In this document: positions 483-38,588 of the stretch, one piece after another
Position numbering within the stretch: position 1 is the stretch's first letter
Layout: every line of letters starts with the position of its first letter
Assembly: GCA_000092065.1 (NCBI GenBank)
Contig: CP000585.1
Length of the DNA stretch: 64,000 bases
Reading direction: 5' to 3' (one strand)
Origin: Ostreococcus lucimarinus
Taxonomy: Eukaryota
Notes under the pieces: generated by a model
What the model saw: the letters and a program-made list of their open reading frames with translations, nothing else
The model's database searches: none
Told to the model about the DNA's origin: nothing
Program-made: the position numbers and the translations under genes

Positions 483-1757
483 ATGTCCGTAAACCCTAAA
501 AATAGCGTCAGCGCCGTCATCCCCAAAATCACCGCCACCGCGTTCGACGCGATCGCTCGCCACGTCTTCCCAGACGTCAGCGGCGCGGTCGGCCACCGCA
601 ACAGCGGCGTCACGAAGCTCAAATTCTCCGGCTGCTGCGCCATCCACGCCCGCATCGCGCGCGCGGCGTACTCCGCCAACGACTCCTCTCGCACGTCGTC
701 GTCGTACGCGCCATCATCGCGCGCCAGCGCCTCGCGCGTCACCGTTCGCGTCACCGTTCGCGTTCGAAGCCAACCCGCGGCGTCGAACGCCGTCACCGCG
801 CCCCGCGCCGCGCGCGCGCGCCGCCGCGCCGTCGCCGCACCGCTCGACGCGCGCGCGACTCTCGAAGTCGCGCGCGCGCGGATCGTCGCGCCGCACCGCG
901 TCGACGTCGTCGCCATTCGCCGCGATGTGCGGTACCTCAGAATGTCGCGCGGCGTCGCGCGCGCGCGCGCGGCGCCGGCGCCGGTCGCGCGGTTCCGCGC
1001 GCGGCGTCGCGCCGGTCGCGCGGTTCCGCGCGCGGCGTCGCTCGGCGTCGACCTCGAGCCCTGGGCGCGCCCGCTCGAGCGCGCGCTCGACTTTCGACGC
1101 GATGGCGCCGGAAGCGCGTCGAGCCGCGCCGCGTCGCTGTTCACGACGGCCGTCTTCGCGCGCGCGTACTGGCGCGGGTATCGACAGCTGTTCAGGGCGC
1201 TCGGGTACCCGGGAGCCGCCGCCGAGGCGTCGCTCGCGCTCGGGACGCTGCGGGACGGCGGCGCGATGCTGGACGTGTCGTGCGGACCGGGGCTGATACT
1301 CGACCTCTTGGCGCGCCATTCGGCGCGCTCGGGGAAGTGGGAGCGCGTGGTTGGTTTAGATTTTTCTCGAGAGATGGTGACACTGGCGCGCGAGGCGTGC
1401 GGCGAGCGCGCGACGGTGGTGGTGGCGGACGCGTGCGATTTGCCGTTCGCCGATGGCGCATTCGACGTCTTGCATTCGAGCGCGGGGGCGCATTGTTGGG
1501 GCGATTTGAACAGCCGTGGCGTTCCCGAGTCGGCTTTTCGCGAAATGTATCGAGTTTTAAAACCGACGGGGGAGATACTGGTATCGACTGTCGTCCTGCT
1601 GAAGCCGACGACGGTTGAGGAGGAGTACTCGCGAACGCCGAACACGCCATTTTTCGACGAACGCGCGGTGTGCCGGATGATTCAAGACGCTGGGTTTCGC
1701 GATGTTGAAGTTATAGCAAAGGATAAGTGTTTCGTGGCCGTCAAGGCTGTTAAGTGA
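483..1757 (+). CDS. Class I SAM-dependent methyltransferase of the plant plastoglobule type (At1g78140/At2g41040-like) with an Arg/Ala/Ser-rich N-terminal extension that looks like a transit peptide
   Basis: ATG at 483. The C-terminal half reads YWRGYRQLF...LDVSCGPGLI...GLDFSREMV...VVADACDLPFADGAFDVLHSSAGAHCWGDL...VLKPTGEILV, which is methyltransferase motifs I, post-I and II in the arrangement of plastoglobule methyltransferases. The N-terminal 200 aa are low complexity, so the true start is uncertain. Confidence 0.7.
   Translation: MSVNPKNSVSAVIPKITATAFDAIARHVFPDVSGAVGHRNSGVTKLKFSGCCAIHARIARAAYSANDSSRTSSSYAPSSRASASRVTVRVTVRVRSQPAASNAVTAPRAARARRRAVAAPLDARATLEVARARIVAPHRVDVVAIRRDVRYLRMSRGVARARAAPAPVARFRARRRAGRAVPRAASLGVDLEPWARPLERALDFRRDGAGSASSRAASLFTTAVFARAYWRGYRQLFRALGYPGAAAEASLALGTLRDGGAMLDVSCGPGLILDLLARHSARSGKWERVVGLDFSREMVTLAREACGERATVVVADACDLPFADGAFDVLHSSAGAHCWGDLNSRGVPESAFREMYRVLKPTGEILVSTVVLLKPTTVEEEYSRTPNTPFFDERAVCRMIQDAGFRDVEVIAKDKCFVAVKAVK
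979..1040. repeat. Perfect 31-bp direct repeat x2 (GCCGGTCGCGCGGTTCCGCGCGCGGCGTCGC) inside the methyltransferase N-terminal coding region
   Basis: Visible at 979-1009 and 1010-1040. It encodes a duplicated PVARFRARRRA peptide. A smaller gtcaccgttcgc x2 repeat sits at about 738-761. Confidence 0.7.
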
Positions 1758-1854: not shown

Positions 1855-2976
1855 TCAACGGCGAAGAATCTGCTTCAGCGCTTGGTCGATCCTCTCGTAC
1901 TTGAACTTATAACCCACATCAAGCGCGGTTTTGGGTTGGATTCTCTGCCCTTGAAGAACTAGAGTCGATCCTTCGCCGAGAACTGCGCGCAACGCGAAAT
2001 CTGGCACCGGCAACCAACTCGGTTTCCCTAAGGTCTCGCCGAGGGATTCGCACATCTCTCGCATGCGGACGGGCGTTGGCGCGACGCAATTCACCGGACC
2101 TTCAAGTTTTACGTTTGTCAAGCTCTCCATTATGATCCCCACCGCGTCGTCTCTATGAATCCAACTAAACCACTGCTGACCGTCGCCCAAGGGCCCGCCC
2201 ATGAACGCTTGGAAAGTCGGCACCATCTTCCCGAGCGCCCCACCATCTCGATCGAGCACAATCCCTAATCGCAGCAGCACCACTCTACAATCTTCAACCC
2301 CACTCGCGGTTTGTTCCCACGCCTGGCAGACTTGACTTAAATAGTCCGCGCCTGGCCCGCTCGCTTCGTCGTACGTATCTGTCTCACTCGTCCCGTAGTA
2401 CCCGATCGCCGAAGCGTTCACCAATACCTTAGGTCTCTTGGCGTCGTTTGTGATCGAATTCACGTGTTCGACGACCGCCTTGGTGGTTTTCACTCGGGAC
2501 GCCATGATTTCACCCTTCACCTTCGGGTCCCAGCGCGTGCTGATTGGTTCGCCAGCTAAATTCACCACGTGCGTCGCGCCGAGCAACCCGCGTCGCCACT
2601 TATCCGGAGACACAAACGCGACGTCGCCCTTTGGGAGATTTTGTGGAGAAAGCTTCGCGCGAGCGCGGTTGACGTCTCGCGTGAGCACTCGCACTTCGGC
2701 GCCCCGCTCGAGGAGCGTCTCCACTAGCTTGCTACCCACGAACCCGGTTGCGCCCGTGATGGCGACGATGAGCCGATCGTCGGACGACGCTACGGACAGG
2801 TCGTCGTCCACGCTCGCGGAAGGCGCTAGAGCGCCCCGACGTGCGCGCGTCGAGCGGAAAAGATGGCGACGACACGTCTTATCCACCGAACGGGACGGCG
2901 AGCGGAGGCGCGCGCAGGGCGTCGCATTGCTCGCCGGAGCACGATAAAACGCGTTACAAGTCACTGCTGACGTCAT
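1855..2976 (-). CDS. SDR39U1 / DUF1731 epimerase-family protein (plant GIANT CHLOROPLAST 1 / SulA-like) with a transit-peptide-like N-terminus
   Basis: ATG verified (cat at 2974-2976). Rossmann motif IVAITGATGFVGSKLVETLLERGAEVRVLTRD. C-terminal ...LVLQGQRIQPKTALDVGYKFKYERIDQALKQIL matches the DUF1731 tail of the YfcH/SDR39U1 family. The first 70 aa are Ser/Arg/Ala-rich. Confidence 0.8.
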   Translation of the reverse strand: MTSAVTCNAFYRAPASNATPCARLRSPSRSVDKTCRRHLFRSTRARRGALAPSASVDDDLSVASSDDRLIVAITGATGFVGSKLVETLLERGAEVRVLTRDVNRARAKLSPQNLPKGDVAFVSPDKWRRGLLGATHVVNLAGEPISTRWDPKVKGEIMASRVKTTKAVVEHVNSITNDAKRPKVLVNASAIGYYGTSETDTYDEASGPGADYLSQVCQAWEQTASGVEDCRVVLLRLGIVLDRDGGALGKMVPTFQAFMGGPLGDGQQWFSWIHRDDAVGIIMESLTNVKLEGPVNCVAPTPVRMREMCESLGETLGKPSWLPVPDFALRAVLGEGSTLVLQGQRIQPKTALDVGYKFKYERIDQALKQILRR

Positions 2977-4610
2977 CTCGTGGTTTGAAGCTCGCGCCCG
3001 GTGCGCACCGCGTCGTCGACTGCGGCCTCACCAACGACGGCTTGACGTTTTTGCAGGAAACTATGCCGCCGAGCGGCGTCGGGCGTCAACCGTCGAGACG
3101 GATTCCAGTGCAGCGCTCGTAGTAGAAATGCGTTGAACCGATCGTCGTCGATATCGATGACTTTCGTGCGCTTGCTTCGCGGCTTGTGCTTTGAGGATGT
3201 CCGATCGCTACGTTTGTCGTCTCGTCGACTTCTCGCAAACGACGACTCGCACACATGAAAGTCGACTCGGCGATCGGAGTGTGCTGCCGAGCTAAGAATG
3301 CGGCGTGGAGGAGGCCCAATCCGCGAGGTGATCGCGCTTAACTGGCGTGCCTCATCGTCGCCCACAAATAAAGTTTTGCCAGTGGCAAGCTCGGCGAGAA
3401 CGCACGCCAAGCTCCATACGTCAATGGGATGGCCGTAATCGATTCCGAGCATGACTTCCGGAGCGCGGTAGAATCGGCTCTGAATGTACGTATACACTTG
3501 TTTTCCCTGAAAACACGCGCTTCCGAAGTCGATGAGTTTGACATCGAACGAGCCAGGATGTTCTAGCAAAATGTTTTCGGGTTTGATGTCACAGTGCACC
3601 ACTTGCATGTGTTTGAGGTACACGAGCGCATCCACCATTTGCCGAGCGATATGGCGGACGTGTTGAATATCTAACTTCGCGAACGCGCGGGCTTCCAAGA
3701 ACTCGTACAAGTTGATGTGAAGCAGCTCAAACACAACGCACAATCGACCGCGAAACTTTAAATGCTCGAACATCTTCACTACGCGACTCGAACCACCTTC
3801 GACACGTTTGAGCACCGAAACTTCCACGCGAGCTTGACTCGCAAATGTTTCGTCAGGAGAAATCAGTTTAAGTGCCACTTCGCGCTTATATTTATGGTCA
3901 AAGCAACGCACAACTTGACCGAAATTTCCCGCGCCGAGTGAATTGAACATTTCAAATCGAAACGCCACGTGCTCGCCCTTCCTGATGCGAAAGGCATCGT
4001 CCTCGTCACCACTGCTAGCACCGGAACCGTGCGATAGCGTTTGCGTGTCGTCTGAGAGATGTTCTAGAGTCGGCACGTACCACACATGTTTGTAACGCAA
4101 AATATCGTTTCGGTCCATCACTCGAAGCCGCTTCCAAAACTTCTGCATCGCTTCTACGATCGACATTCCGATCGAGTCTCCATGCCTGGACCTATGAGTT
4201 TCCGGTGTCTGTTGGGATTGGTATTTTCGCCTCGCCGTGCCAGGCCGGCCGGTGGCGCCCGCGCCGTGTCGTCGACTCGAGCGCGCGCTGAGCGGTGGTA
4301 TGGTTGGTGTGAACTTAGGGGTCATGGCCGTTTCGTACGACGATGTCTGCTGGACCACGCCGAAACAACCATTGCAAGTTCCATATTTGTCGTCGGTCAC
4401 TCTGGCGTTTGCGAGCGCGTGCGAACGTAAACGAGTTTGAGTCACGGTCGCAGTGGCAAGTCTTCTCGGTGGAAGTTCGGTCAACGCGTCCACGCGGCGA
4501 GGAGCCGTAGAAGGCATACGACATCCTTCGCCGCCCGGTTTAGCGACTGGGTCAATTGTGAGGGTTGGGAAAATGCGCCTACGATCGTTTGTCGCATCTC
4601 GAGTCCGCAT
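2973..4610 (-). CDS. DYRK-family dual-specificity protein kinase
   Basis: ATG verified (cat at 4608-4610). Kinase subdomains include HCDIKPENILL, DFGSA, and activation loop YTYIQSRFYRAPEVMLG, the DYRK-type Y-x-Y. Its stop codon overlaps the start codon of the downstream gene in ATGA. Confidence 0.85.
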   Translation of the reverse strand: MRTRDATNDRRRIFPTLTIDPVAKPGGEGCRMPSTAPRRVDALTELPPRRLATATVTQTRLRSHALANARVTDDKYGTCNGCFGVVQQTSSYETAMTPKFTPTIPPLSARSSRRHGAGATGRPGTARRKYQSQQTPETHRSRHGDSIGMSIVEAMQKFWKRLRVMDRNDILRYKHVWYVPTLEHLSDDTQTLSHGSGASSGDEDDAFRIRKGEHVAFRFEMFNSLGAGNFGQVVRCFDHKYKREVALKLISPDETFASQARVEVSVLKRVEGGSSRVVKMFEHLKFRGRLCVVFELLHINLYEFLEARAFAKLDIQHVRHIARQMVDALVYLKHMQVVHCDIKPENILLEHPGSFDVKLIDFGSACFQGKQVYTYIQSRFYRAPEVMLGIDYGHPIDVWSLACVLAELATGKTLFVGDDEARQLSAITSRIGPPPRRILSSAAHSDRRVDFHVCESSFARSRRDDKRSDRTSSKHKPRSKRTKVIDIDDDRFNAFLLRALHWNPSRRLTPDAARRHSFLQKRQAVVGEAAVDDAVRTGRELQTTR

Positions 4611-4743
4611 CGGCTTGTGAGGTTCGCGTTGGCCAAATATAGGTGGCAGCCAACAAGTAAACTGCTCATCTAATTTTCAAACCTTGATTTTCTAGCTAAC
4701 CACTCCGGAACACGTCCCGATCATCCTAACGTTATTTCCGACA

Positions 4744-5655
4744 CTATTTCTGCGCTTCCGCGCGTTTCTTTGCCTGTTCCAGCGCTTCTGTCAATTTCTT
4801 CGCGGCGGCAACTTCCTTCAGGAGTGCGAAGACCAACGGGATATAATTGTGCCTACGTCGTATATTATCGTTCCTCCATTCAGCCACTTTAGCCTCTTCG
4901 ACTTCTAATTCGCGCTGCAAATGCGCGATCTCATCCGCGGCGCCAGTGCTCGACGACCGTAGTTCCTCGAGTCGCTGTGAAATTGCGATTCTAGGATCCT
5001 TCGTAACAGCCATGAGATTAAACTTGATCTCATTCGACGCGAATGACGCGATCTTCCGTTGAATCGCCGGAACCGCTACGTCTAACCAATGCCCGTCGCC
5101 AAAGCTTCCGTGATTGATCGGCCCTCTCTGCAAACCATCGAGTTCGAAGACGGAACCGCCTCTTGGTACGTAGGCAACAAAGTGAAACACGTCGTCGTCC
5201 TCTTGCGCAGGCCTAGACTGCAAGACGATTGGTTCTGGACGCGCGAACGAGTTATGTGCGTCGCGAATGATGTCCGAGTTGGAGATACTCATCCCTTTCG
5301 TTTCAGCATCGAAGTCGAGGGTGAACTCCCTTAGCGTTTGGAGCGTCTCGCCCAACTCAACTTCTTGTTCGGCGTTCAACAACACGCTAAGCACCGCTTG
5401 CGTGGCGCACGCGTTGTGAATCACTTGCGACGCGAAGAACAAATCTTGCGGTGGGTTTTCATCGACCTCAACTGCGCTCGAGCTGTGACCGCCGCGCCAC
5501 TTGAACAAAAATATGAGTCCGTAGATTGGTTCGTTACGACGAAGTTCATCAACGTCTAGCGAGTAGAGTTCTGTGAATGCGACGCCACGCGCGCCGATTC
5601 GATGGACCAGCTCGCCGAAGACCCCGGGATCGCTCTCGATGAGGCACCAGTCCAT
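4744..5655 (-). CDS. Ubiquitin C-terminal hydrolase, UCH37/UCHL5-like (peptidase C12 with C-terminal ULD/coiled-coil tail)
   Basis: ATG verified. N-terminal WCLIESDPGVF, Cys box QVIHNACATQAVLSVLLN and His box HFVAYV are present. C-terminal NYIPLVFALLKEVAAAKKL resembles the UCH37 tail. Confidence 0.85.
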   Translation of the reverse strand: MDWCLIESDPGVFGELVHRIGARGVAFTELYSLDVDELRRNEPIYGLIFLFKWRGGHSSSAVEVDENPPQDLFFASQVIHNACATQAVLSVLLNAEQEVELGETLQTLREFTLDFDAETKGMSISNSDIIRDAHNSFARPEPIVLQSRPAQEDDDVFHFVAYVPRGGSVFELDGLQRGPINHGSFGDGHWLDVAVPAIQRKIASFASNEIKFNLMAVTKDPRIAISQRLEELRSSSTGAADEIAHLQRELEVEEAKVAEWRNDNIRRRHNYIPLVFALLKEVAAAKKLTEALEQAKKRAEAQK

Positions 5656-5801
5656 CGAGTGCGCGCGCGTGAGTGTGCGGTTGAACTTCTTAGGGGTCGT
5701 GCTCGTCGGTGAAGGGCGAACGAACTTTATTCAATAAAGAGTTTGTATAATTACAGCAGTTGGCGTGCTAAAGTGCGCGCCGCGTTCGTCTTATCGCGAT
5801 A

Positions 5802-8800
5802 CTATTCCATGATGTCGTCGACAGCGCCACCGAAGCGGCCCCACAAACCAGATCGGCGAGCGACGGGCTGTTCGGGCTCTTTCTCAGGTTCATCATCGAG
5901 GACGCTCTCGTCGACGGATTCTCCGGGTGCAAGCGCACGGCTCTCGACGATTATTTCGTTGCCGTCAGAGTCATACTCGACGATTTCAAGAATCTCTTCC
6001 GTCTCTTCAAGGTAACCAGGTTCTTCTTCCTGCTCGCCGTCTTCACTCGGTTCATCTTCAACTTCTGTGTCGTAGGTCGTGGCGATCTCGACGCGCGAGC
6101 CATACCTGCGCTCCATCGATTCTTCCACGTCGTACACGACGGTGGGTTTGGATGTAGGTGAAGGCGCGCTTCGAATCGGTTCTACTGGCTCCGGCTCGGG
6201 TCGCTTTGGAATTTCCGGCATCTCGAACGTTGGCTCGTCGCCCAAGTCAAAGTTCACCGTGGTCGAACCGACGTTCGGATCTGCCATCTTTGGCTCGGGT
6301 CTAGCCATGAGCTTGTCCCGTTCCGATCTCAACTCGTTTAGCTCCGCCAGCTGAGATTTACAGGTTTCGTGACACTCATCGAGAAGCTTCTGCAGTTCTG
6401 CGGTGCCGTCGTCATGCGGCTGTGATTTCGCAAGCACCAATGCCCTCTTAAGCTCCGCGATCTCCACCTTGAGTGTGATTAGGAACTCTTCAGCGCCTTG
6501 AGCGCGTTTGTCATTCATTCTAGCCCAGTTCTCGGCGTACTCGACGGCCTCTTGGCTTGACTTGATCTCGTCTTCCAACGTGGTGACTTCTTCTCGCGTG
6601 GACGCGAGTTCGATTTCAAGGTCGTGAATTTTAGCCCGAGTTGCAGCCGAATCGCCTGTCGCACCAGCGGCTTCGAGCTTCGCGGCCGCAATAGCCTTTA
6701 CAGACTTCTCGCGTTCATCGCTCAATTCATCTTCGAGATCACTGATTCGCTCTTTGAGTGCAGCCAGCTTGCCACGCAAGTCTTCTTCGTACTCAATTCG
6801 CACATTCGAAAGCTCGCTGCGCAACTTCGTAATCTTCGCGTCGCTCGCCTTTTGGATGCGCTGACTTTCAAACATAAGTTCTTCTTGCTCGGCCGCGTAT
6901 TCTTGGACTTGCGCGCGAAGCTTAGCCAATTCAACTTCGGCGTCGTTTAACTGTTCTTGTGTACGTTCGAGCTTCCGCTGAATCAAGTCAGCATTTTGTC
7001 TGGCTTCAATCTGGAAGAAGTTGAACTCCTTCGTGATAAAGTCCTTGGCGACACGCAAACGTTCGAGCTCGGCGAGAGCCTCGTCGAGTTCCTCCTTGAG
7101 AGATACATTTTCGTCGTTCAGCTTCTTGCCTGCGCTGATGAGGTCGGCACTCTTTGAGCTCACTCGTTCGGCTTCAGCGCCGAGCTCATTCTGAGTGCTC
7201 TCGTACTCAGCCTTGAGTTCCTTCACCTGCAACTCAAGACGCTCAATGAGCGTGGTTTGCGAGGTGATCTTTAAATGCAGTTCTTTCTTCACGCGCATAG
7301 TTTCCTCTGAAGCAACATTCGTCGCAGTCATCGCGGCAGTTGCCTCACGTTCTCGCGAGGACAGCTTCTCGCGTAGCGCGTGGACTTCACGTTCTCGCTT
7401 GGTGCGCTCCGTTACGAGTTCTGTTTCAAGATGTTCAACCTTCGTTCTGAGCACGTGAATCTCTCGCAGAAGATCGGGGTCGTTGCTTGATGATGCTTGA
7501 GATTTATCCTTCGCACCTCGCTCGAGCTCGTCCAATCTAAGACGGAGTTTCATCATGTCAGAAACAGCGACGTCACGCGAATCCGTCATTTCAACAAGAT
7601 CGCCCTCGAGATCTTCGATGATTCTCGCATAATCCCGCGCCGCGTTTTCGCGATCCTTGATTTCTTTACCTATGGCGAAACTGTGATCGGAAATGATCTT
7701 TTCAACTGCCGCGGCATGTTTGCGCTCGATCGAGATGATTTCTTGCTCGAGCTCTGAGATGCGCTGTCGCAGCGTTTTCACGAGTTCATCGTTCACACCT
7801 GTATTTTTCCCCTTGACGCGTTCGGCATCACTCAACTGTCGACGCAGCAAATCAAGCTCTTTCTCCAAAAGTTCTTTTTCCGAAACATGCTCGGCGGATT
7901 TCGCTTTGAGCGCGTCCAGCTCAGACTGCAACGAGGGGATGATCGACTGTTTCGCTTTCAGCTCGGCGAGCTTTTCTTGCAAAGCGGCAAGTTTCGTCTC
8001 CAACATCTTTCGTTCCTCATCGGCATTTGCCGACGCAGGCACTTGCTTTCTCAGCTCGTCCAAATCTGCTTGCAAAGTATGAATTGTTCTTGTCGCAACT
8101 TCACCGTGCACCTTTAATTCCGTTTTGAGCGACCCTGCGAAAGAAGAAGCCAGAGACAAAAGTCTCTTGTTACGAACATCACGAATCGTGCATCGTAACA
8201 ACGCCGCCCAGCGTAATTGTGCGCGTTCGGACTTGTTAAGGCCATATTGCTTGCCCTCCATATCTGCAAGTCGCTTCGCTGCAGACGCTGCGTCGGCCAT
8301 CGCTCGAGATTGCAGATCGTTGAAATCTCGCTCGAGTCGCTTAATCTTTTCCTGAGCGGCAGCATTTGCCGACGCAGGCACTTGCTTTCTCAGCTCGTCC
8401 AAATCTGCTTGCAAAGACTGAATTGTTCTTGTCGCAACTTCACCGTGCACCTTTAATTCCGTTTTGAGCGACCCTGCGAAAGAAGAAGCCAGAGACAAAA
8501 GTCTCTTGTTACGAACATCACGAATCGTGCATCGTAACAACGCCGCCCAGCGTAATTGTGCGCGTTCGGACTTGTTAAGGCCATATTGCTTGCCCTCCAT
8601 ATCTGCAAGTCGCTTCGCTGCAGACGCTGCGTCGGCCATCGCTCGAGATTGCAGATCGTTGAAATCTCGCTCGAGTCGCTTAATCTTTTCCTGAGCGGCA
8701 GCTAGGCCAACGCTTTGCTCGCCACCAGTGAGAAGCATCTTCTCCAAATCAGAAATCGTCTCATCTCGCTGCCCGATGATAGCTTGAGACTTTGTCATCT

Positions 8801-11800
8801 CGTACGAAACTCGGATCTTTTCCTTTTCGAGCTGTGAGATCTTCAACTTGAGATTAATAATCTCCTCCTGCAACGTGCGCTCTCGCGCCTCTGAGGACGC
8901 TTCAGATTCAGTGGCACCGGCGAGGCGCTTCTGCATGCCGTCGAGCTTATCCTGTAACGAATGAATGGTGATCTGGGCGGTGTTTCTGTGCGCAACGAGT
9001 TCTCGCAATGTCGCCTTGCTGTGGCCGAGAGCAATATTAAGGAAACGTCGATGGCCTTCCTTCACTTGCAAGATGCGGCACGTCGTGCGCCAACGAAGCG
9101 CGGCACGTTCTGATTTCGTGTGCATCATTGCATCATCGTGCGTTCTCTCCAATGAGACACATCTCTTTCGTAAAACATCCAACTCCTGCTCAAGCCGCTG
9201 AGCGACGCGAGCAGCATCTTCTGCGTCTACAGCAGACTGAGCCTTGAAGTCCTCGTACTGCATTCGCAACTCAGACAACTCGCGACGCGTAGTAATGGCG
9301 TCTCCCGACATCGAAGACTTCGACTTCTCCAACTCTGTTTCATGCTCCAGTAATAGCCTTTCGAGCTCCTCAACTCTTGAATCGCGAAGTCCCAAAGTAC
9401 TAGCGTGACGGAACTTGAGCACAGTGAGTTCCTTCTTCTGAATTTGCACGAGATCGGCAATTTGCTGCTCAAAGTCGGCGTGCGCTTGCTCGGCGCGTTT
9501 CGCAGCGTCAGCGGCTTCAGCGCGCATGCGCTCTCTCAATTCTCCAAGTTGCTGCTCGAAGTTCGCCACCATAAGTTGGTATCGAGATTCAGAATCTTCA
9601 GCATCCGATGCTGCTTTCGCCTTGTGCCGAGCAGACAGACTTTCGAGTAAAGTCTTAAAGTTCGCCTGCGCTTCAAGTTCGCGTTCAGCCGCTTCATCCG
9701 CCGCCGCGCGCAGTTGTTGCTCGAAATCCGCTTGCGATTGCTGCGCGCGTGCTTCAGCGCTGTCAGCATCAGCTTTCATGCGCTTGCGTAAATCCTCGAG
9801 CTGCTTCTCGTACTCTTCCTTCATCTGCAGGAAACGAGCGTGTTCAAACGTTGCATCGGACTTTGACTTATTCTTCAATCGCTCCGCCAAGTCATCGAGC
9901 TGATTTTTGAAATCAACCTGCGCTTGGTGCTCGCGCGCAGCACTTTCATCTGCGTCTATACGTGCGCGTGTGCGAAGATCTTCGATTTGCTTGTCATAGT
10001 CGGATTTCATGCTTTGGGCTCGACTCTTCGCCTTTTCCGCGTCAAGCTTGAGTTGATTCTGGAGGTCGTCCAATTGCGCAACAAGGTTCGCCTTTTCGTC
10101 CTGAAGACGCTGCAACTCCGAAGAAGCGGTGGATTTCGTGGAATCCATCGAGGACTGTGCCTCTTGAAGCAAGAGTTCAAGCTCGGCGACGCGTGCGTCG
10201 CGCACGCGTACAGTCTCGTCGAGATCTTCGAGCGCCTTCAGCTTCGCTTTCACTTCAAGCATCTGGTCATTGAGCGAGCGAATCGTCTTGTCGGACGTCG
10301 CCGCCCAGCTGCGTGCCTCGACGAGCTCGGCGGACGTAAACGATTTTACGAGTGCGACATGACGCTGGTGCAACCTTCGTGCGCGCAAGACGCGGCACAT
10401 CCAGGACCAGCGCAACGACGTTCGTTGAGACAAAGCACGCGCTTCCGCGTCTACGAGAGCCTTTTCAGCGGCTGCAAGTTGCGAGCGGAGAGCATCACCG
10501 TCATTTGAAGCCGCGCTGGTCTTCAATGATAACCCTTCCAACTCGGCCCGCAGCGTCTCAATTGTGCTCGCCAACGTCAACTTTTCTTCGGAGGAAACTT
10601 TCAGTAACTCCTTCAGATCGCTAACAGACTTCTGAAGCGCGGTTATATCATCAGCCGCTCGACTGTTTTCACCCTTCGCCGCTTGCAAAGCAATTTTATA
10701 ACCATTGACATCTTTTTCGAGTTCAATGATTCGCGCGACTCGCTTTGCTTCTTCATCCGCGCTCCATTGTGCTTGGAGAGTTTCAATTTGGCTTCGCGAC
10801 TCGGCGAGCTCGCGGCGTAAAGTGATGACGTCCCCGGTAGAAGTAGACTTCAACGCCTCCCAATCGTTCTGTGATTCAAGTAACAGAGCCTCGAGTTCGT
10901 GAATGCGTTTGTCACGAAGTCCCATAGCACTCGCTTGACGGAACTTGACAACCGCAGAATCCTTCTTGTGAACTTCAGCGAGATCAGCCAGTTGTTGCTC
11001 GAAATCCGCTTGCGATTGCTGCGCGCGTGCTTCAGCGCTGTCAGCATCAGCTTTCATGCGCTTGCGTAAATCCTCGAGCTGCTTCTCGTACTCTTCCTTC
11101 ATCTGCAGGAAACGAGCGTGTTCAAACGTTGCATCGGACTTTGACTTATTCTTCAATCGCTCCGCCAAGTCATCGAGCTGATTTTTGAAATCAACCTGCG
11201 CTTGGTGCTCGCGCGCAGCACTTTCATCTGCGTCTATACGTGCGCGTGTGCGAAGATCTTCGATTTGCTTGTCATAGTCGGATTTCATGCTTTGGGCTCG
11301 ACTCTTCGCCTTTTCCGCGTCAAGCTTGAGTTGATTCTGGAGGTCGTCCAATTGCGCAACAAGGTTCGCCTTTTCGTCCTGAAGACGCTGCAACTCCGAA
11401 GAAGCGGTGGATTTCGTGGAATCCATCGAGGACTGTGCCTCTTGAAGCAAGAGTTCAAGCTCGGCGACGCGTGCGTCGCGCACGCGTACAGTCTCGTCGA
11501 GATCTTCGAGCGCCTTCAGCTTCGCTTTCACTTCAAGCATCTGGTCATTGAGCGAGCGAATCGTCTTGTCGGACGTCGCCGCCCAGCTGCGTGCCTCGAC
11601 GAGCTCGGCGGACGTAAACGATTTTACGAGTGCGACATGACGCTGGTGCAACCTTCGTGCGCGCAAGACGCGGCACATCCAGGACCAATGCAAAGCTGCG
11701 CGCTCTGACTTGGCTTGCACGAGCGCCTTTGCGCGCGTCGTGTTGGATTCGTCGAGCTGCTCGCGAAGAATTCTGAGCTCGCCGTGCAAGCGCGAGACTT

Positions 11801-14800
11801 GACCGGAGGATGAGCTCCTCGCTGACTCAAGTGAAGTTTCATATTCACTTATAGCGGTCTCCAGACGCTGGCGTTCGAGCTCAAGTTCATTGATACGGGC
11901 TTCCTTCTCCTCAATTTCATCCTTGTGCGTGTGACGCGCAGCAGTGAGAAGTTTTTCGTGCTCGTCGATGGAAGCTTCGAGGCGCTTGACGAGCGCTTCC
12001 AATTCAGTAATACGGCGCTGATCGACGTCCTTCTTCTTCAACGATTCAAATTTCGCGCGCAATTTTTCAACCTCGGACTTGTTCTTTTCATCCGTCTTTC
12101 GAGCTGACCTATTGGCATTGTCGAGTTTTTTCTCGAGATCACGTATCGTTTCTCGCAAGGCATCCGCTTCTCTTCTGGAAACCTTCACAGCTTCGTCATA
12201 CCGCTTTTTCGAATCCTTGTCCAGCGTGTCGAGATCCCTGTTCAGTTGCTTCGCGAGTTTACCACTCTCGGAGAGTTTCTCCTCCAAATCTTTGACTTTC
12301 ATCCGCGCTTGCGACTCATCCGAAGCCATCTTACCCTTTAACGTAGTGATTTCGTCTTGATGCGCTTCTTCCTTCTTCGCGGCGTCGTCAGCGCGTTGCT
12401 TCAGTTTGGCGTTGGATTCATTCAACGACGTAATCGTGCGCTGAGTGAACTCTACGTAGAGTTTATGATCAGCTCTCATGCCACGAGTGAAGTCCTTTGA
12501 GGTATCGAAGAACCTGTCATGACGATCTCGCTGTTTGACATTCGTAAGGAGTAGTCTCCATCTTGCCGCCGCGAGCTTCGCGGATGATGTCTCCTGGAGC
12601 CCGGCATAAAGTGAACTCGTTTCGTCGAGGCGGTTACGGAGCGTCGCGCACTCCGATCTCAATCGCGACTCTTCTGAGGAGAGTCGCGCTTTTGTTGATT
12701 CCGCGCTCGACTGGAGTTCTTTCATGCCATCCTCCAAGGAGGCGATGAGCTGTTGAAGCTCCTCAATTCGAGCTTCCGACGCCTTCTTTATCCCCAGATT
12801 CTTTGCGACTTCATTTTCGAGTTGCTTCTTAAGATTACGAATTTCGTCGTTCAGAGAGTTGATCGTTCGCTCGCTTTGCTTTTCAATTGAGGCCCGATTC
12901 TTTTCCGCTTCTTCAAACTGCTTCTTCATGACGTTCAAATTGTCATCGCGTCGCTTTCGCAACATCTTGAGCTCTTCGTCAACCTTTGATTTGCTCTTTT
13001 TACTTCCTTCCAGGTCATTCTTTAGCGCCGCAACCGTGTCACCGAGCGAACGAACCGTCTTTGTCGATGCCTCCGCGTGAAGACGGTATTCAGTCCTCAT
13101 CGACTTGACAAAGTCGCGAGCTGTGTGCGTAAATCGGATGCCACGATTTCTTAGACGAAGCTCGTTGGCCAACATCGACCAGCGAATACGGACACGATCC
13201 CTCTTCGAGGCTACGTGAGCTTCCGCTTCCGCTTTCCACGCGTCTCGGATGTCTTTGATTTCCTGCTCGAGGGAGCGAGAATATGCCGTCTTCGTTTCGT
13301 GTAACGAGTTCTGATAACTTTCGACCATACCTTCGAGCACCCCAATGCGCTCGTCGCGCGCCTTCATAGCGCCGTCGGTCTGGAACATTTCGCCTTGCAT
13401 CTGTTCGATTTGCGTCTCAAATTGCTTGGATTGCTTATGCATTTCCTTCAGGTCCGTCTTCGACTTTGCTATAGTACCTTCGAGCGACTTGTTCTTGCTT
13501 ACCATATCAGCGAGCTCCTTCTTTAGCGCTGCTATTGTGTCACCAAGCGAGCGAACTGTTTTTGTCGTGCCCTCGGCGTGAAGCCGATATTCAGTCTTCA
13601 TTGACTTGGCAAAGTCCTTTGAAGTATTCAGGAATCGAAGGTGTCGCTTACGCGTGCGAAGGAGCGAGCACAATGCAGTCCAGCGGCTCGTCGCGAGTTC
13701 ACTCTGCAAGACATCGATACGCTCTCGCAAAGTTGAAATTTCGCCTTCAAGTTCACGGGAATACCGCGTTTTTGTTTCGTGCAGAGATTCCTGATACTCA
13801 CTCACCATCTTTTCAAGCGCTTGAATACGATTATCGCGGGCGGCCAACGCAAGTTCATTATTGAATTTGAATGCGTCACTCTCACGGACTTCGTTCTTCA
13901 ATGCTGCCGCAAACTGTTTCGAATTCTGGAAGAATCGATTATGCCGAGCCTTGAATGTAAGGAAGCGCGCAAAGTGAGACCAACGAAGCGTGGCCAGCTT
14001 CGATCGATGCTCGCTGTCGCCTTCTGCAAGACGCTTTTCTAACTCGACAACACTTTCCGCCAGCGATTCTTTACTTGCCATCATATCGCTGAGGTCCTTT
14101 TCAAGCCTTTTGATCGTCTTGTCACTCTCACGGACTTCGTTCTTCAATGCTGCCGCAAACTGTTTCGAATTCTGGAAGAATCGATTATGCCGAGCCTTGA
14201 ATGTAAGGAAGCGCGCAAAGTGAGACCAACGAAGCGTGGCCAGCTTCGATCGATGCTCGCTGTCGCCTTCTGCAAGACGCTTTTCTAACTCGACAACACT
14301 TTCCGCCAGCGATTCTTTACTTGCCATCATATCGCTGAGGTCCTTTTCAAGCCTTTTGATCGTCTTGTCAAGGGACCGTATCGTTGCCGTCGCCGCGGCA
14401 GCGTGCTGCCTATATTCCTCCTTCATGGATCTGGAGAAGTCCTTTGAAACAGCGTAAAATCTGGCGTGCTTTTGAATGATTCGTGATTTGCTATACATCG
14501 CGGCCCATCGCAATCTTGCCCGTTCACTCCTTCCGTTCGCGATCGCTGAAGCGTGCGCAGCCTGTTCCGAGGTCAGCCTGCTTTGAAGGCGTGCAACTTC
14601 GCCCTCGAGGTCGCGGGAATACCTCGTCTTTGTTTCGTGCAATGAGGATTGATACTCCTGCAACATTCCTTCGAGGGTCACAATGCGCTTGTCTCGAACA
14701 TCCAAGCATTCCGCGTGATCTCCCCTGAGCTTCGCAATAATCGCTCGCAGTTCATCATTGCGCTTCGTGAGTTCGGCGTTTGTTGCTTCGGCTTTGTCTT

Positions 14801-17670
14801 GCAGAGACAAATATCTTCTGTTGATCGATTCTGTACCTTTCACGGCTGAATCCAGTGAACTACGCAACGTGTCGTTCGCTTGAGCCATGTCTCGCTCTCT
14901 GGTCGCCGAGAATTCTGCATTGACGTTGTACTGATGCTTGAGAACGCTCAATTCGTCAGCAAGTGCCAGTAATTCAGACTTAGCACTGTCGCGCGATGCC
15001 GTCATGTTAAGCAAATCATTCTGCAAAAATTCAACCTTTTGCTGCCATTCCTTGACGTTCGCTGCGTGACTTCCGCGAAGTTGTCTATCCCTGGCGTCGC
15101 TCTCACTCGTCTTAAAATCAAGCTGAAGTCTGAGTTCGGCGATTTGAGCCTGAAGCTGCTGCGCGCTCACATCAGCGGCGCGCGTCTCCACTGGCCGCAT
15201 CGATTCGACATGTTGAATCTTGATGTGCTTCTCTTCAAGAATCTGGCAGCGCTGCGTAACCTCACGAATCGATTTGGTAACTGAGACCTTGTGCTGCTCG
15301 GCCATCAAAGTCGACTTGGTGGATTCGGATACCGCAACTTCAAGCTGCTTGCTCTTAATATCGAGCCTGCTCAGATCCACGGATTGCGTGTTGATGATGT
15401 TGTAGGCTTCACGCAGCTTAGCGGCCTCGTTCTGCTTCACCAATGTGAATTCCTTGTCCTTTTCGCGCAGAAGTCGTCTGTACTTGGCGACATCTTCTTC
15501 ATTCTTCGCACGCAACTGCTTACACTGCTTCTCAAGCTGAGCCATTTTCAATTGATCCGCCTCGCTCATCGACGGCACCGCGGCTGTCTCGCCATCGGTT
15601 GCACGTACCGGATATTTTTTGGCAATTTCGTTCTCAAGCGCTTGAACTCGTCGCTGATCCTTCTCACGAAGCTCGCAGACAGTCTTCAATTCAGTCTCTG
15701 TGTTAGTGAGCTTTACGAGTAGAGCGTCGTACGCGTTCTTGAGGCTTGTTCCGCGAATGGACGCGCGCCATTTTGCAACACCGAGCGCGGCGCGACGGTC
15801 GGATAACTCGGCTGTTCTCGACTCGAGTTCGCGTTCAATGCCCGTGATTTGATCGCTAAGACTATCGATCTTCTCGTCTCGGCTACGAAGGTCACGAATG
15901 TACGACGCGTGATCCGTTTTCAATTCGAGGATTTCTGCATCTTTACTCTTTAGTGACGATTCGAGCAACCCCAAAGAGTCCGCAGCGGCTTGCTTCTGAC
16001 TCTCCATCGACGCTTGTGCGGATTTGAATGCCTCAGTGCTGGAGTGTTTCAACTCTTGGAGCGCAGCCTCACCGTCGGAGATCTGCTGTCGCAGTTGCGC
16101 AATGATAGTATTCGACTTGATGACGTGCGCGCTGTGCGCCTGTTGAGCCGCCGAGTGATCAGCGTCGAGTTTCTCCGACGCATCTCGAAGAGTCGCGATT
16201 TCCTTACGTAACTCATCGATCAACGCGGCGTTTCGCTCGTTGTCGCGGCTTTGTAACTCCTCTTTTGACTTGAGCTGCACTTGAGACTCAACTTCATCCT
16301 TCCGTAACTTTTCTATGGTGTCCAAATACTCAAGCATGCGCGTCTTGAGCGCAAAGTTTTGCATTCGCGAAGTTAAGTGCGCGAACGTCAATCCGGTTCT
16401 CCGCTCGATCAACGTTCGTTCAACGTCCGGCACACCCTGATTGGAATTGTAGTGAAGTGTGTGACGGTCGCTTGTCATCAAGTCACGGATTTTCGCACGG
16501 CAAACTTGAAGTTCTTCCTCTATCAAATGCTTGCGGCCTCGGACACTTTCTTCGCGCGATTCCGCTTTGGACAAGAGACGCATCAGTCGCGAAATCTCGG
16601 CGCGTAGATTCGTCCGATCCGTGTCAAACTTAGTGCGATCTCGCTTGCGCGACTTTTCACTCTGCGTGATCTTCGTGCGAATAATGGTCGTCTCGCGTAC
16701 GTGCGACTCAATGCTCTCCTTCAACTTGCGCTCAATCACCGTCGTCGTGCTCTGCGACTGCTCCAACTCCTTCGTTAGAAGCTTGATTTCTGAGGTGAGC
16801 TTCTTCGAAGTGGTTTGAAGTTCTTTCGTCGCGCTGTCGCGCTCGCCCGTCACAGCGTTGATCCGCACTCTTAAAGCATTGAGTTCATCCTTCAGGCGAT
16901 CGACTTCTTCGGACTTGCCATCGAGGCTCTTCTTGAGAGCAGCGTTTTCGATTTCAAGTTTGTGTTTGTCATCTTCCAACTTCGCGAAGGCCTCGTTGGT
17001 TGATATAGAGATGTTAATCGACGACTTGATGTCATACGAGCTCTTTAACTCGATTTCAAGCTTCGAAATGCGCTCCTGCGCGTTCGCGTTGATTTTCTCG
17101 AGCTCGATGATGTCCTTCTTCAACTTGGCGTTCAAGTCGTCGAGTTGATCGCGCTTGCGGCGTTCGTCGAGCGCATTTTGCTTAGTCACTCGATTCGCGG
17201 CCTCAATAGCAGCCTCGAGAGAGCGCTTTGCCTTTACTCGATCCTTCTCCGCGTTTGCAGTCAGTTCTTGAATCTTCTTTTCCATATGTGCCTTGAGGTC
17301 GTTCAACTCTTGCTCGAGCGCGGCCTTCGCCGAACGCTCCTCGCCGAGCCAGCGCGTGTGCTCCTCGAGCGCGGCTTCTGCGGTCGCGCGTCGCTTGTGA
17401 CAGTCGCCACAATCATTGCGCTCTGCACGAAGCGCTTCTTCTGCACGTAACGCTCGAACGCGCCAACTATCATCGACAGTCTTGACTCCGCCGTCTGTGC
17501 CTCGCCATGCTTCGAGCAGGGCAAGCGGTTCAACACGAAAACTCACCCCCATGGGGTTATCGACGCGTTTAATGAGCGGACTCGTGCTCAACTCGGGTTC
17601 ATCGTGCACGTCAGACCCATTCGTTAACCCATCCAACAGTCGAGAGATGGCGCTTGCGGAATCTTCTTTT

Positions 17671-17711
<41 letters not shown>

Positions 17712-17981
17712 TGCCTTGGGCTTGGGCTTCTCTCTCTTCGGCCTTGGCGACGGCGAGCGCCTCTCTCTCGCCTCGCGCGGCCGATTTATGAAATCATCCC
17801 GACTTTGTCTGGTATCGACCCCCAAAAGCATCCCTTTGAAGAAATTCACTGATTTCCCGTTCGCCTCCCCGTTCTTGGCCCCCGTCCTCGTCTTACCGTC
17901 CGTCGGCGGAAGTTCGCACCCTTCGCCGCCGAATCGGCACTCTGCGCGCGCGCGAGCGATCATCGCACCATCGTCAATCAT
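5802..17981 (-). CDS. Giant (about 4,060 aa) coiled-coil protein with an N-terminal poly-Pro tract, at least 11 copies of a Trp-containing ~45-aa module, and an acidic C-terminal tail
   Basis: A single uninterrupted 12.2-kb ORF. The track start at 17987 is a TTG; the first ATG is the third codon, at 17981-17979. Heptad-like E/K/R/L/Q-rich sequence runs throughout. The module (K)SERAxLRWxxxxxxxRxxxRFxxxSKDFxxSMxxEYRLH...KTIRSL recurs. It ends in the acidic EDEPSEDGEQEEEPGYLEETEEILEIVEYDSDGNE. Undetected introns cannot be excluded. Confidence 0.7.
8024..8700. repeat. Intragenic tandem duplication, 2 x ~339 bp, near-identical, inside the giant coiled-coil gene
   Basis: The sequence from gcatttgccgacgcaggcacttgctttctcagctcgtcc through to cttaatcttttcctgagcggca occurs at about 8024-8360 and about 8361-8700 with only a few mismatches. 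The track shows identical 76-aa antisense ORFs at 8125..8355 and 8464..8694. It duplicates a 113-aa protein segment. Confidence 0.9.
9706..11693. repeat. Intragenic segmental duplication: two near-identical ~710-bp copies (9706-10415 and 10984-11693) separated by 568 bp (copy starts 1278 bp apart), inside the giant coiled-coil gene
   Basis: Identical strings such as ttgctcgaaatccgcttgcgattgctgcgcgcgtgcttcagcgctgtcagcatcagctttcatgcg begin at 9721 and 10999. Identical antisense ORFs sit at 9924.. and 11202... The duplication covers an approximately 235-aa protein segment. More diverged paralogous copies of the same unit exist elsewhere, for example about 9390-9480 against 10925-10990. Confidence 0.9.
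13875..14370. repeat. Intragenic tandem duplication, 2 x 246 bp, near-identical, inside the giant coiled-coil gene
   Basis: The sequence gtcactctcacggacttcgttcttcaatgctgccgcaaactg... occurs at 13875 and 14121. The track shows identical antisense ORFs at 13990.. and 14236... It duplicates an 82-aa segment. Confidence 0.9.
17673..17712. repeat. (GGC)13 microsatellite encoding the poly-Pro tract (P14) of the giant protein
   Basis: The run ggcggcggcggc... is visible. On the minus strand the CCG frame gives PPPPPPPPPPPPPP. Confidence 0.9.
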
Positions 17982-38291: not shown

Positions 38292-38419
38292 CTAAATGTA
38301 ACCCATTCGCCGCGTTCGCCGCGCCTCGCGCGAGTTGGTCTGCGCGCCGAGTCCAACCGTCAGTCACGTCGTCTCGCGCGTCGTCTCGCGCGTCGCGTCG
38401 AGCGTCCGCGCGCACGAAC
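38292..38419 (-). other. PEX5: Proposed spliceosomal intron (128 nt, GT..AG, phase 1) in PEX5 that joins an out-of-frame first exon to the main ORF
   Basis: Minus-strand donor is CGAG|GTTCGT at 38419 and acceptor is TTACATTTAG|CG ending at 38292. The 1+2 phase joins ...QRASER to A-REGLLDGVEDV... in the main frame. That an intron exists is near-certain because of the frame change, but the exact acceptor is a model. Confidence 0.55.
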
Positions 38420-38588
38420 CTCGTTCGCTCGCGCGCTGTATCTGTTGTTCGCGCGCGCGCGTGCCTCGATCGCCGAGTAAGACGTCGGCGACGCGCGCGA
38501 TTGGATTCGCGGCGCTCGACGGACCGGCGCCGTCGCTGGGTTCGCACGACGCGCCGCCGGTCGCGAGATCGCGCATGAACCTCGACAT
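38420..38588 (-). CDS. PEX5: PEX5, exon 1 (MSRFMRDLATGGASCEPSDGAGPSSAANPIARVADVLLGDRGTRAREQQIQRASER)
   Basis: ATG verified (cat at 38586-38588). MRDLATGGASC...NPI matches the conserved PEX5 N-terminus (Arabidopsis MAMRDLVNGGAAC...NPLGAL). It lies in a different frame from the 776-aa track ORF, whose first ~150 Arg-rich residues are therefore not coding. Confidence 0.8.

What the first reader, a model, noticed from the sequence alone, without database searches (positions are those of the whole stretch)
2973..2976. Stop codon of the DYRK kinase overlaps the start codon of the SDR39U1 gene (ATGA) on the same strand
On the minus strand the DYRK ORF ends ...QTTR-TGA at 2975-2973. The only possible ATG of the downstream GC1/SulA-like gene is 2976-2974, the first Met of that ORF, with a 70-aa transit-peptide-like leader before the Rossmann motif. 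This gives a 4-nt ATGA overlap. In a eukaryote this implies either that the downstream gene's promoter and 5'UTR are embedded in the kinase coding region, or that there is a dicistronic transcript, or that the SDR39U1 leader is supplied by an unseen upstream exon.
Basis: seen in the sequence. Interest (0 to 1): 0.5.

Follow-up and report, generated by a model that had tools for sequence, protein, structure and literature searches.

The report
Four-base gene overlap in Ostreococcus
In the ultra-compact genome of the marine picoalga Ostreococcus lucimarinus, a DYRK kinase gene ends on the TGA inside the ATGA that starts the next gene; the overlap is real and conserved, but it is best read as an ordinary by-product of genome compaction with two overlapping mRNAs, not a special expression mechanism.

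Summary
On the minus strand, the DYRK2-class kinase ORF (2973-4610) stops at TGA 2975-2973. The TIGR01777/SDR39U1 ORF (1855-2976) starts at ATG 2976-2974, the only ATG before its Rossmann motif.

The window is Ostreococcus lucimarinus, whose reference SDR protein uses this ATG. The O. tauri reference annotation has the same 4-nt overlap. ATGA junctions occur in five core Ostreococcus lineages. Four others have spacers of 47-129 nt.

The kinase tail that reaches the ATGA lies outside the DYRK fold, is weakly constrained (pN/pS 0.63) and is unalignable between species. A stop-free tail of that length is expected by chance 52-75% of the time.

A UGUAA poly(A) signal sits 15 nt after the kinase stop, inside the SDR leader (chance about 0.004-0.006). 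A 277-nt ATG-free zone precedes the SDR start. The kinase ORF as a whole is not ATG-depleted, and no conserved RNA structure precedes the AUGA.

Best reading: two separate, overlapping transcription units. An unseen-exon explanation is rejected. A bicistronic mRNA is unlikely but not excluded, because no transcript data were available. Interest is low to moderate.

The parts
2973..4610 (-). DYRK2/3/4-class protein kinase ORF (545 aa from the first ATG; a public 514-aa model starts at the second ATG, residue 32)
   Evidence: ORF list. Pfam Pkinase covers residues 220-519. Best PDB matches are DYRK3 5y86 and DYRK2 3k2l over residues 148-523. P0121 is a 514-aa model at 100% identity.
2976..3044 (-). 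Kinase C-terminal tail (residues 523-545), which lies outside the DYRK fold and carries the ORF across the former spacer to the ATGA
   Evidence: The fold match ends at about residue 522. The tail is unalignable between O. lucimarinus, O. tauri and L016/L018. pN/pS is 0.63 against 0.19 for the core, based on only 8 substitutions. It is stop-free by chance in 52-75% of shuffles.
2973..2976 (-). ATGA: SDR start codon ATG (2976-2974) overlapping the kinase stop codon TGA (2975-2973)
   Evidence: ATGACG is the only invariant block in the junction alignment of five lineages.
1855..2976 (-). TIGR01777 / SDR39U1-type (ThyD-like) NAD-binding epimerase-family ORF, 373 aa, 100% identical to O. lucimarinus CCE9901 XP_001418003.1
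2782..2976 (-). SDR N-terminal leader (residues 1-65), chloroplast-transit-peptide-like
   Evidence: Composition is S11 T5 A11 R10, with one acidic residue in the first 50. Leaders are variable but 62-73 aa long in all Ostreococcus orthologues. pN/pS is 0.43 against 0.05 for the mature part.
2954..2958 (-). TGTAA (UGUAA), candidate poly(A) signal for the kinase mRNA; it starts 15 nt after the kinase stop, within SDR codons 7-8
   Evidence: It is one of only 4 sense TGTAA in 56,265 nt of CDS in the window. TGTAA density is 4.37/kb in the 120 nt after stops against 0.07/kb in CDS. UGUAA is the published O. lucimarinus poly(A) signal (PMC6413133). It is conserved in sister lineage L023. Chance of occurrence here is about 0.0035-0.006.
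2977..3253 (-). 277-nt stretch of kinase coding sequence with no ATG in any frame, directly upstream of the SDR ATG; candidate location of the SDR TSS and 5'UTR
   Evidence: The shuffle P is 0.068 in the window. The corresponding zone is 323 nt in O. tauri and 69-230 nt in the other lineages. Combined Fisher p is 0.005-0.011.
3028..3030 (-). In-frame stop codon (TGA) upstream of the SDR ATG in the SDR reading frame
   Evidence: it closes the frame, so no N-terminal extension is possible without splicing.

Best explanation
The two genes are separate, overlapping transcription units in a hyper-compact genome, and the 4-nt CDS overlap is a by-product, not a coupling device. Shown: the window is Ostreococcus lucimarinus, where tandem genes are typically about 130 nt apart. 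Shown: the DYRK kinase has lain immediately upstream of the SDR gene since before the Bathycoccus/Ostreococcus split, and the distance from the end of the kinase domain (RHxFL) to the SDR ATG is about 77-95 nt in most Ostreococcus lineages (153 nt in L020). Shown: in core Ostreococcus the kinase frame has no early stop, so it reads through about 25 weakly constrained codons until the TGA that the SDR's ATG-ACG creates in the +1 frame. In other lineages an earlier stop leaves a spacer of 47-129 nt. Inferred: the kinase mRNA is cleaved and polyadenylated shortly after the UGUAA at 2958-2954, inside the SDR transit-peptide coding region, so it does not carry the SDR ORF. Inferred: the SDR mRNA starts from its own TSS within the last 70-280 nt of the kinase coding region, which is free of ATGs, so the first AUG that scanning ribosomes meet is 2976. 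Inferred: the promoter-proximal UGUAA is bypassed on the SDR transcript.
For: The overlap is real and appears in reference annotations: O. lucimarinus SDR XP_001418003.1 starts at this ATG, and O. tauri GCA_000214015.2 annotates the kinase at 4364-6004 and the SDR gene at 6001-7110 in L007. The junction is ATGA in WIN, L023, L007, L016 and L018, and gapped in L020, L010, L012 and L014, which maps on the tree as ancestral to core Ostreococcus. The tail is non-conserved with pN/pS 0.63, and a stop-free tail is expected by chance at 0.52-0.75. The window is compact, with a median tandem gap of 133 nt, tandem gaps down to 41 nt and a convergent gap of 8 nt. [quoted passage not shown] UGUAA is the O. 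lucimarinus poly(A) signal (PMC6413133), it is about 60-fold enriched after stops in this window, and it sits 15 nt after the kinase stop (chance 0.0035-0.006). An ATG-free zone precedes the SDR ATG in most lineages (Fisher p 0.005-0.011). Against coupling: the kinase ORF has 24 ATGs against 22.9 expected, and there is no conserved structure upstream of the AUGA.
Against: There is no direct transcript evidence: no TSS, poly(A) site or long-read data could be accessed. The TGTAA after the kinase stop is found only in O. lucimarinus, its sister L023 and L014, not in O. tauri, L016 or L018. Only about 30-40% of genes carry the canonical signal, so that absence is weakly informative. A functional UGUAA 19 nt into the SDR ORF should also threaten SDR transcripts, and bypass by promoter proximity is assumed, not shown. 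The ATG-free zone is individually non-significant in most lineages, and the lineages are not independent. The exact conservation of tail length (25-26 codons) across core Ostreococcus, despite sequence turnover, is not explained by pure neutrality.
Confidence: 0.7

Rival explanations
1. A single bicistronic DYRK-SDR mRNA is made, and ribosomes terminating at the kinase UGA reinitiate at the overlapping AUG. This would be AUGA termination-reinitiation, as in some RNA viruses and in prokaryotic translational coupling.
For: The stop and start overlap exactly, in the geometry used by known stop-restart systems. The ATGA junction is retained in five diverged lineages, with ATGACG invariant. In every Ostreococcus lineage the kinase-SDR spacing is at most 129 nt, so a conventional intergenic promoter is absent. 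Green algae do make polycistronic mRNAs, and some Auxenochlorella loci have overlapping ORF1 stop and ORF2 start codons (PMC7896298 and PMC11291117).
Against: ORF1 is 545 codons long, and reinitiation efficiency falls steeply with ORF length unless a dedicated RNA element is present (discussed in PMC11291117). No conserved structure or sequence was found upstream of the AUGA (consensus -4 kcal/mol, 0 covarying pairs). Four related lineages have spacers of 47-129 nt with an intact, highly conserved SDR gene. A poly(A) signal follows the kinase stop by 15 nt in O. lucimarinus. The ATG-free zone covers only the last ~70-320 nt of the kinase ORF, which a reinitiation model does not predict.
Confidence: 0.08
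2. A bicistronic mRNA is translated by leaky scanning past the kinase AUG, the mechanism demonstrated for green-algal bicistronic loci.
For: It is the established mechanism in Chlamydomonas, Chromochloris and Auxenochlorella (PMC11291117). The collinear arrangement is conserved across the family.
Against: Leaky-scanning loci have short ORF1s (median about 290-600 nt) and are depleted of ATG in all frames upstream of ORF2. Here ORF1 is 1638 nt with 24 ATG trinucleotides (22.9 expected), 11 of them in frame, and O. tauri also has 24.
Confidence: 0.01
3. The overlap is an annotation artefact. Either the true SDR N-terminus comes from an unseen upstream exon or a downstream/non-AUG start, or the kinase really terminates earlier through an unnoticed intron.
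For: About 19% of O. tauri genes have introns (PMC4378021). In sister lineage L023 a second in-frame ATG lies three codons downstream and was preferred by a gene caller. In the Bathycoccus-like locus L025 the overlapping ATG is probably not the real start.
Against: The SDR ORF is continuous, matches TIGR01777 end to end (1-292/292) and carries a 62-73-aa transit-like leader starting at the homologous Met in nine lineages. An in-frame stop lies 2-18 codons upstream. The next Met (residue 158) would delete the Rossmann motif. The kinase matches DYRK2/3 structures continuously to residue ~522, and the Pfam profile is complete at 263/263. The O. tauri re-annotation, which was built with RNA-seq splice junctions and then manually curated, keeps both models.
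Confidence: 0.03

Closest known systems
Overlapping transcription units / overlapping UTRs in compacted eukaryotic genomes (Ostreococcus tauri, PMC4378021; convergent overlapping pairs in Micromonas, PMC4815162; microsporidia and nucleomorphs, from my own knowledge of Williams et al. 2005 PNAS)
   Same: Adjacent genes are too close to hold a terminator, promoter and UTRs between them, so the upstream 3' end and downstream 5' end must lie inside neighbouring genes. In this window the median tandem gap is 133 nt and one convergent gap is 8 nt.
   Different: Here the coding sequences themselves overlap, by 4 nt on the same strand. That is the extreme of the distribution in this window, and I did not find it discussed specifically in the papers searched.
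Green-algal polycistronic (bicistronic) loci translated by leaky scanning (Gallaher et al. 2021, PMC7896298; PMC11291117)
   Same: Two collinear ORFs with a tiny or negative inter-ORF distance, conserved across species. Some Auxenochlorella loci likewise have overlapping stop and start codons.
   Different: In those loci ORF1 is short and ATG-poor. Here ORF1 is a 545-codon kinase with a normal ATG content, and a poly(A) signal follows its stop. A shared transcript has not been shown.
Viral termination-reinitiation at overlapping stop/start signals (calicivirus TURBS, influenza B M1/BM2 UAAUG, victorivirus AUGA; from my own knowledge; reviewed in PMC10275272 as cited)
   Same: The AUGA tetranucleotide, in which the upstream stop overlaps the downstream start.
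   Different: Those systems depend on a conserved upstream RNA element that tethers the 40S subunit. No conserved sequence or structure is present here, and related lineages dispense with the overlap.
Prokaryotic translational coupling (ATGA overlaps in operons)
   Same: Identical sequence geometry. Prokaryote-style gene callers on metagenome contigs report the pair exactly as an operon-like overlap.
   Different: This is a nuclear eukaryotic locus with cap-dependent scanning, and there is no Shine-Dalgarno logic. A few of these contigs have even been deposited as '[bacterium]' MAG proteins, which is a binning error.

Membership tests
Overlapping independent transcription units in a compact eukaryotic genome | Neighbouring genes are spaced too closely to hold the terminator, promoter and both UTRs | tested here: met
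   Kinase-SDR spacing is -4 nt. Window tandem gaps have a median of 133 nt and a minimum of 41 nt, and one convergent gap is 8 nt.
Overlapping independent transcription units in a compact eukaryotic genome | The upstream gene has its own 3'-end processing site inside the downstream gene | tested here: inconclusive
   A canonical UGUAA lies 15 nt after the kinase stop in O. lucimarinus and L023 (chance 0.0035-0.006). It is absent in O. tauri, L016 and L018. No poly(A) site data were available.
Overlapping independent transcription units in a compact eukaryotic genome | The downstream gene has its own TSS inside the upstream gene | not testable with these tools
   The only evidence is indirect: ATG-free zones of 69-323 nt upstream of the SDR ATG (Fisher p 0.005-0.011). 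A poly(A)-tail pattern scan of public contigs gave only a chance hit.
Green-algal leaky-scanning bicistronic loci | Short ORF1 (median roughly 290-600 nt) | tested here: not met
   ORF1 is 1638 nt, compared with the medians quoted in PMC11291117.
Green-algal leaky-scanning bicistronic loci | Depletion of ATG in all frames upstream of ORF2 | tested here: not met
   24 ATG were observed against 22.9 expected in the kinase ORF, and O. tauri also has 24. Only the last ~70-320 nt are ATG-free.
Green-algal leaky-scanning bicistronic loci | Both ORFs are found exclusively on one mature mRNA | not testable with these tools
   No long-read or EST data were accessible.
Termination-reinitiation (stop-restart) cassettes | Overlapping or closely adjacent stop and start codons | tested here: met
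   AUGA at 2976-2973.
Termination-reinitiation (stop-restart) cassettes | A conserved RNA sequence or structure within about 100 nt upstream of the restart site | tested here: not met
   RNAalifold on five lineages gave -4.06 kcal/mol, 9 pairs, 0 compensatory changes and a positive covariation term. Only ATGACG is invariant.
Termination-reinitiation (stop-restart) cassettes | The stop-start geometry is retained wherever the gene pair is retained | tested here: not met
   Four of nine Ostreococcus lineages have spacers of 47-129 nt. The L020-lineage kinase P0126 is intact and ends early.
DYRK (CMGC) protein kinases | Full kinase domain with closest similarity to DYRK2/3/4, including the region N-terminal to the catalytic domain | tested here: met
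   Pfam Pkinase E=3.8e-49. PDB DYRK3 5y86 E=5.5e-80 and DYRK2 3k2l E=3.9e-77 over residues 148-523. JGI names relatives 'DYRK 2/3/4'.
TIGR01777 / SDR39U1 (YfcH, ThyD-like) epimerase-family proteins | Rossmann GxxGxxG N-terminus, an Epimerase domain and a C-terminal DUF1731, scoring above the curated cut-off | tested here: met
   TIGR01777 scores 336 bits against a cut-off of 207. ThyD NF050030 scores 372 bits, below its 400 cut-off. Pfam finds Epimerase plus DUF1731. Plant orthologues are named 'SDR39U1 homolog, chloroplastic'.

The most novel reading that the evidence does not exclude
The DYRK kinase and the plastid-targeted SDR39U1 protein are co-expressed from one conserved bicistronic nuclear mRNA in core Ostreococcus. 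The SDR would be translated by termination-reinitiation at AUGA after a 545-codon ORF, without any recognisable TURBS-like element. That would be a cellular, free-living-eukaryote example of long-ORF stop-restart coupling.
Probability: 0.07. Interest if true: 0.75.

Novelty: new member of a known kind. Interest (0 to 1): 0.25.

Why it matters
The locus is a clean, phylogenetically tractable example of how far gene packing can go in a free-living eukaryote. The coding region of one gene appears to double as the promoter and 5'UTR of the next, and the transit-peptide coding region of the second holds the likely poly(A) signal of the first. It shows that CDS overlap can arise neutrally, through stop-codon drift in an unconstrained tail that reads across a former spacer. 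Practically, such junctions cause transcript concatenation in RNA-seq assemblies. They can make eukaryotic gene predictors that forbid overlapping models truncate one of the genes. They also make prokaryotic callers and binners treat picoeukaryote contigs as operons; some of these proteins are deposited as '[bacterium]'. If the minority bicistronic reading were true, the locus would extend green-algal polycistrony to long upstream ORFs and a different translation mechanism.

Tried and rejected
1. Unseen exon or intron. Rejected because both ORFs match their families continuously, in-frame stops lie upstream of the ATG, and the start is conserved.

2. Leaky scanning. Rejected because the kinase ORF is not ATG-depleted.

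3. A conserved RNA element for reinitiation. RNAalifold on five lineages found none.

4. A -1 frameshift producing a kinase-SDR fusion. No slippery heptamer is visible by eye in the 18 open codons upstream of the ATG. In L018 and L012 the SDR frame is closed 2 codons upstream. A fusion would also place a transit peptide internally.

5. Direct evidence for a polyadenylated kinase 3' end. I scanned JGI metagenome contigs for the TGTAA region followed by A12.

6. Transcriptome-derived cluster members. Only one MMETSP entry was found (P0298, Ostreococcus sp. RCC789, 'Transcript_1957/g.7300'). It hints at multi-ORF assembled transcripts but cannot separate a bicistron from overlapping UTRs.

7. TGTAA avoidance in CDS beyond codon usage. 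Not supported: 4 observed against 6.8 +/- 2.6 under codon shuffling. The rarity of in-CDS TGTAA is largely compositional, although its position right after the kinase stop remains improbable.

8. Variant poly(A) pentamers after the kinase stop in other lineages. Nothing convincing was found.

9. Rfam and tRNA scans of the window found nothing.

10. The apparent kinase pseudogene in L020 is contig-specific, because the lineage's common allele P0126 is intact.

Full report
**Observation.** The minus strand reads ...caaaccacgagATGAcgtcagcag.... ORF 2973-4610 (545 aa) ends ...ELQTTR-TGA at 2975-2973. ORF 1855-2976 (373 aa) begins at ATG 2976-2974. The SDR frame is closed by a TGA 18 codons upstream (3030-3028). 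The next Met (residue 158) lies beyond the Rossmann motif TGATGFVG. The coordinates, the 4-nt ATGA overlap and the claim of a single possible ATG are therefore all correct.

**Identity of the genes and organism.**
- The upstream protein has a complete Pkinase domain at residues 220-519. It matches solved DYRK3 and DYRK2 structures over residues 148-523 (E about 1e-77 to 1e-80), so the last ~23 residues lie outside the fold.
- The downstream protein is Epimerase+DUF1731. It scores above the TIGR01777 cut-off and resembles cyanobacterial ThyD. Its plant orthologues are named 'SDR39U1 homolog, chloroplastic'.
- Its first 65 residues are Ser/Thr/Ala/Arg-rich, with one acidic residue in the first 50, which is transit-peptide-like.
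- The SDR protein is 100% identical to XP_001418003.1 of Ostreococcus lucimarinus CCE9901. The window is therefore that species or a near-identical strain, and the reference annotation already uses this ATG.
- The window is nearly intron-free and tightly packed. Tandem gaps have a median of 133 nt, with one at 41 nt, and one convergent gap is 8 nt.

**Comparative picture.** The gene order giant coiled-coil / UCH / DYRK / SDR / methyltransferase (opposite strand) / ABCF is conserved across Ostreococcus.
- *Overlap present:* the O. tauri reference assembly annotates the kinase at 4364-6004 and the SDR gene at 6001-7110 of L007, which is the same 4-nt overlap. That annotation was built with RNA-seq splice junctions and then manually curated. 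ATGA overlaps also occur in L016, L018 and the sister lineage L023, whose kinase is 90% identical. In L023 a gene caller merely preferred a second ATG three codons downstream.
- *Overlap absent:* L020 has a 129-nt spacer, L012 68 nt, L014 (the Ostreococcus sp. RCC789 lineage) 57 nt, and L010 47 nt.
- *Tree:* the overlap occurs in both sub-clades of core Ostreococcus, was lost in L020, and is absent in the deeper lineages.
- *Outgroups:* a Bathycoccus-like contig also has the DYRK kinase directly upstream and an ATGA. The likely SDR start there is M59, about 170 nt downstream. Micromonas has no kinase at this position.

**How the overlap arises.** The distance from the end of the kinase domain (RHxFL) to the SDR ATG is roughly constant, at about 77-95 nt (153 nt in L020). 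What differs between lineages is whether the kinase frame meets an early stop.
- In the overlapping lineages, a 25-26-codon tail runs to the TGA created in the +1 frame by ATG-ACG. L012 keeps the same frame and the same ATGA but has an early stop.
- The tails cannot be aligned between O. lucimarinus, O. tauri and L016/L018.
- Between O. lucimarinus and L023, pN/pS is 0.63 for the tail (8 substitutions), 0.19 for the DYRK core and 0.05 for the mature SDR.
- Composition-matched shuffles of the tails are stop-free 52-75% of the time.
- The overlap therefore needs no selective explanation. It is what stop-codon drift in a GC-rich, weakly constrained tail is expected to produce. One unexplained detail is that tail length is conserved at 25-26 codons even though its sequence turns over.

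**Expression mechanism.**
- *Against leaky scanning:* the kinase ORF has 24 ATG trinucleotides against 22.9 expected, and the O. tauri kinase also has 24. Bona fide green-algal bicistrons have short, ATG-poor upstream ORFs.
- *Against termination-reinitiation:* there is no conserved structure or motif upstream of the AUGA, the upstream ORF is 545 codons long, and the overlap is dispensable in four lineages.
- *For a separate kinase mRNA:* UGUAA is the published poly(A) signal of O. lucimarinus (PMC6413133). In this window it occurs at 4.37/kb in the 120 nt after stop codons against 0.07/kb in CDS. Only four sense TGTAA occur in 56 kb of CDS, and one starts 15 nt after the kinase stop, at 2958-2954 in SDR codons 7-8. 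The chance of that is 0.0035-0.006, and the site is conserved in L023. The kinase mRNA thus probably ends inside the SDR leader.
- *For an embedded SDR 5'UTR:* the 277 nt upstream of the SDR ATG contain no ATG in any frame. The equivalent zones are 323 nt in O. tauri and 69-230 nt elsewhere, against a mean ATG spacing of 53-108 nt. The combined p is 0.005-0.011, with the caveat that the lineages are related.
- *Conclusion:* the best-supported model is two overlapping but independent mRNAs, with confidence about 0.7. This is inferential, because no TSS, poly(A) site or long-read data could be reached. A scan for polyadenylated contigs gave only a chance hit.

**Comparison with known systems and verdict.** The locus works like the overlapping transcription units already described for compact eukaryotic genomes, and for this genus in particular. 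It fails the defining tests for green-algal leaky-scanning bicistrons and for viral-type stop-restart cassettes, resembling the latter only in the AUGA geometry. The gene models are already in public annotations. It is therefore a new, well-characterised member of a known kind, of modest interest (0.25). The most novel reading not excluded is a conserved AUGA-coupled bicistron after a long ORF (about 7%), which would deserve high interest and could be tested directly with long-read RNA and ribosome profiling.

Noticed in passing
window 5802-17987 (-): A giant intron-free ORF of about 4,060 aa encodes a coiled-coil protein with large, near-identical internal duplications; blocks of about 80 and about 230 aa are repeated verbatim. 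Its called length differs between metagenome contigs (3,746-4,058+ aa in L001-L005, 4,187 aa in O. tauri), suggesting repeat copy-number polymorphism or assembly collapse.
   Followed up: no
window 38245-38736 (-): The stop of the N-myristoyltransferase gene (38705-38707) is followed by a stop-free, Arg-rich reading frame of about 150 codons that leads into a PEX5-like TPR protein whose first ATG is only at 38244. The resulting 460-nt 'gap' is unusually long for this genome. It may hold an unrecognised exon, a non-AUG start, or a small gene on the other strand.
   Followed up: partly
window 500-1300: GC content reaches 74-79% over the N-terminal half of the methyltransferase ORF (483-1757, +), with long ORFs open in several frames on both strands. 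Gene callers place the methyltransferase start very differently (163-397 aa models in L001-L008). [quoted passage not shown]
   Followed up: no
window 2876-2884 (-); same position in L023, L007, L016, L018: GGATAAGAC (Asp-Lys-Thr/Ala) is conserved at nucleotide level, about 90 nt into the otherwise fast-evolving, acid-poor SDR transit-peptide region, in five lineages. It could be a conserved targeting or processing motif, or a cis element for the overlapping kinase 3' end.
   Followed up: no
L020 ~930-960 (contig ERZ27288128 k119_675968): This contig carries two in-frame stop codons seven codons apart inside the conserved kinase core (GID*GHSIDV*SLAC). The abundant allele of the same lineage (P0126, 523 aa, 280 cluster members) is intact. 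It is either a rare null or pseudogene variant, or an assembly error.
   Followed up: partly
window 57650/57659, 36328/36370 and other junctions: Convergent genes are separated by only 8 nt (54963-57650 + and 57659-58726 -), and tandem genes by 41 nt (TPR gene stop at 36370, Gpi16 ATG at 36328). Antisense-overlapping 3'UTRs and embedded promoters must therefore be common in this window, not only at the kinase/SDR pair.
   Followed up: partly
window ~3250-3420 vs L023 (alignment): O. lucimarinus and the sister lineage L023 are 100% identical over about 215 nt of the kinase 3' region, then diverge abruptly to about 8% difference. This suggests recombination or introgression between the lineages, or a chimeric metagenome contig.
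   Followed up: no
clusters of P0002 and P0122: Proteins from this Ostreococcus locus are deposited in NCBI as '[bacterium]' MAG proteins (MDA9599318.1, MDA9766567.1 and MDA9766568.1). Picoeukaryote contigs with operon-like gene spacing are being mis-binned as bacteria.
   Followed up: no
L025 2697-2700 (Bathycoccus-like contig): The orthologous DYRK ORF also ends in an ATGA that opens the SDR reading frame. The first 58 codons from that ATG (K/E-rich, then SLSLSL low complexity) do not look like a transit peptide, and M59/M60 is the more plausible start. An upstream in-frame AUG would then sit in the SDR 5' region.
   Followed up: partly
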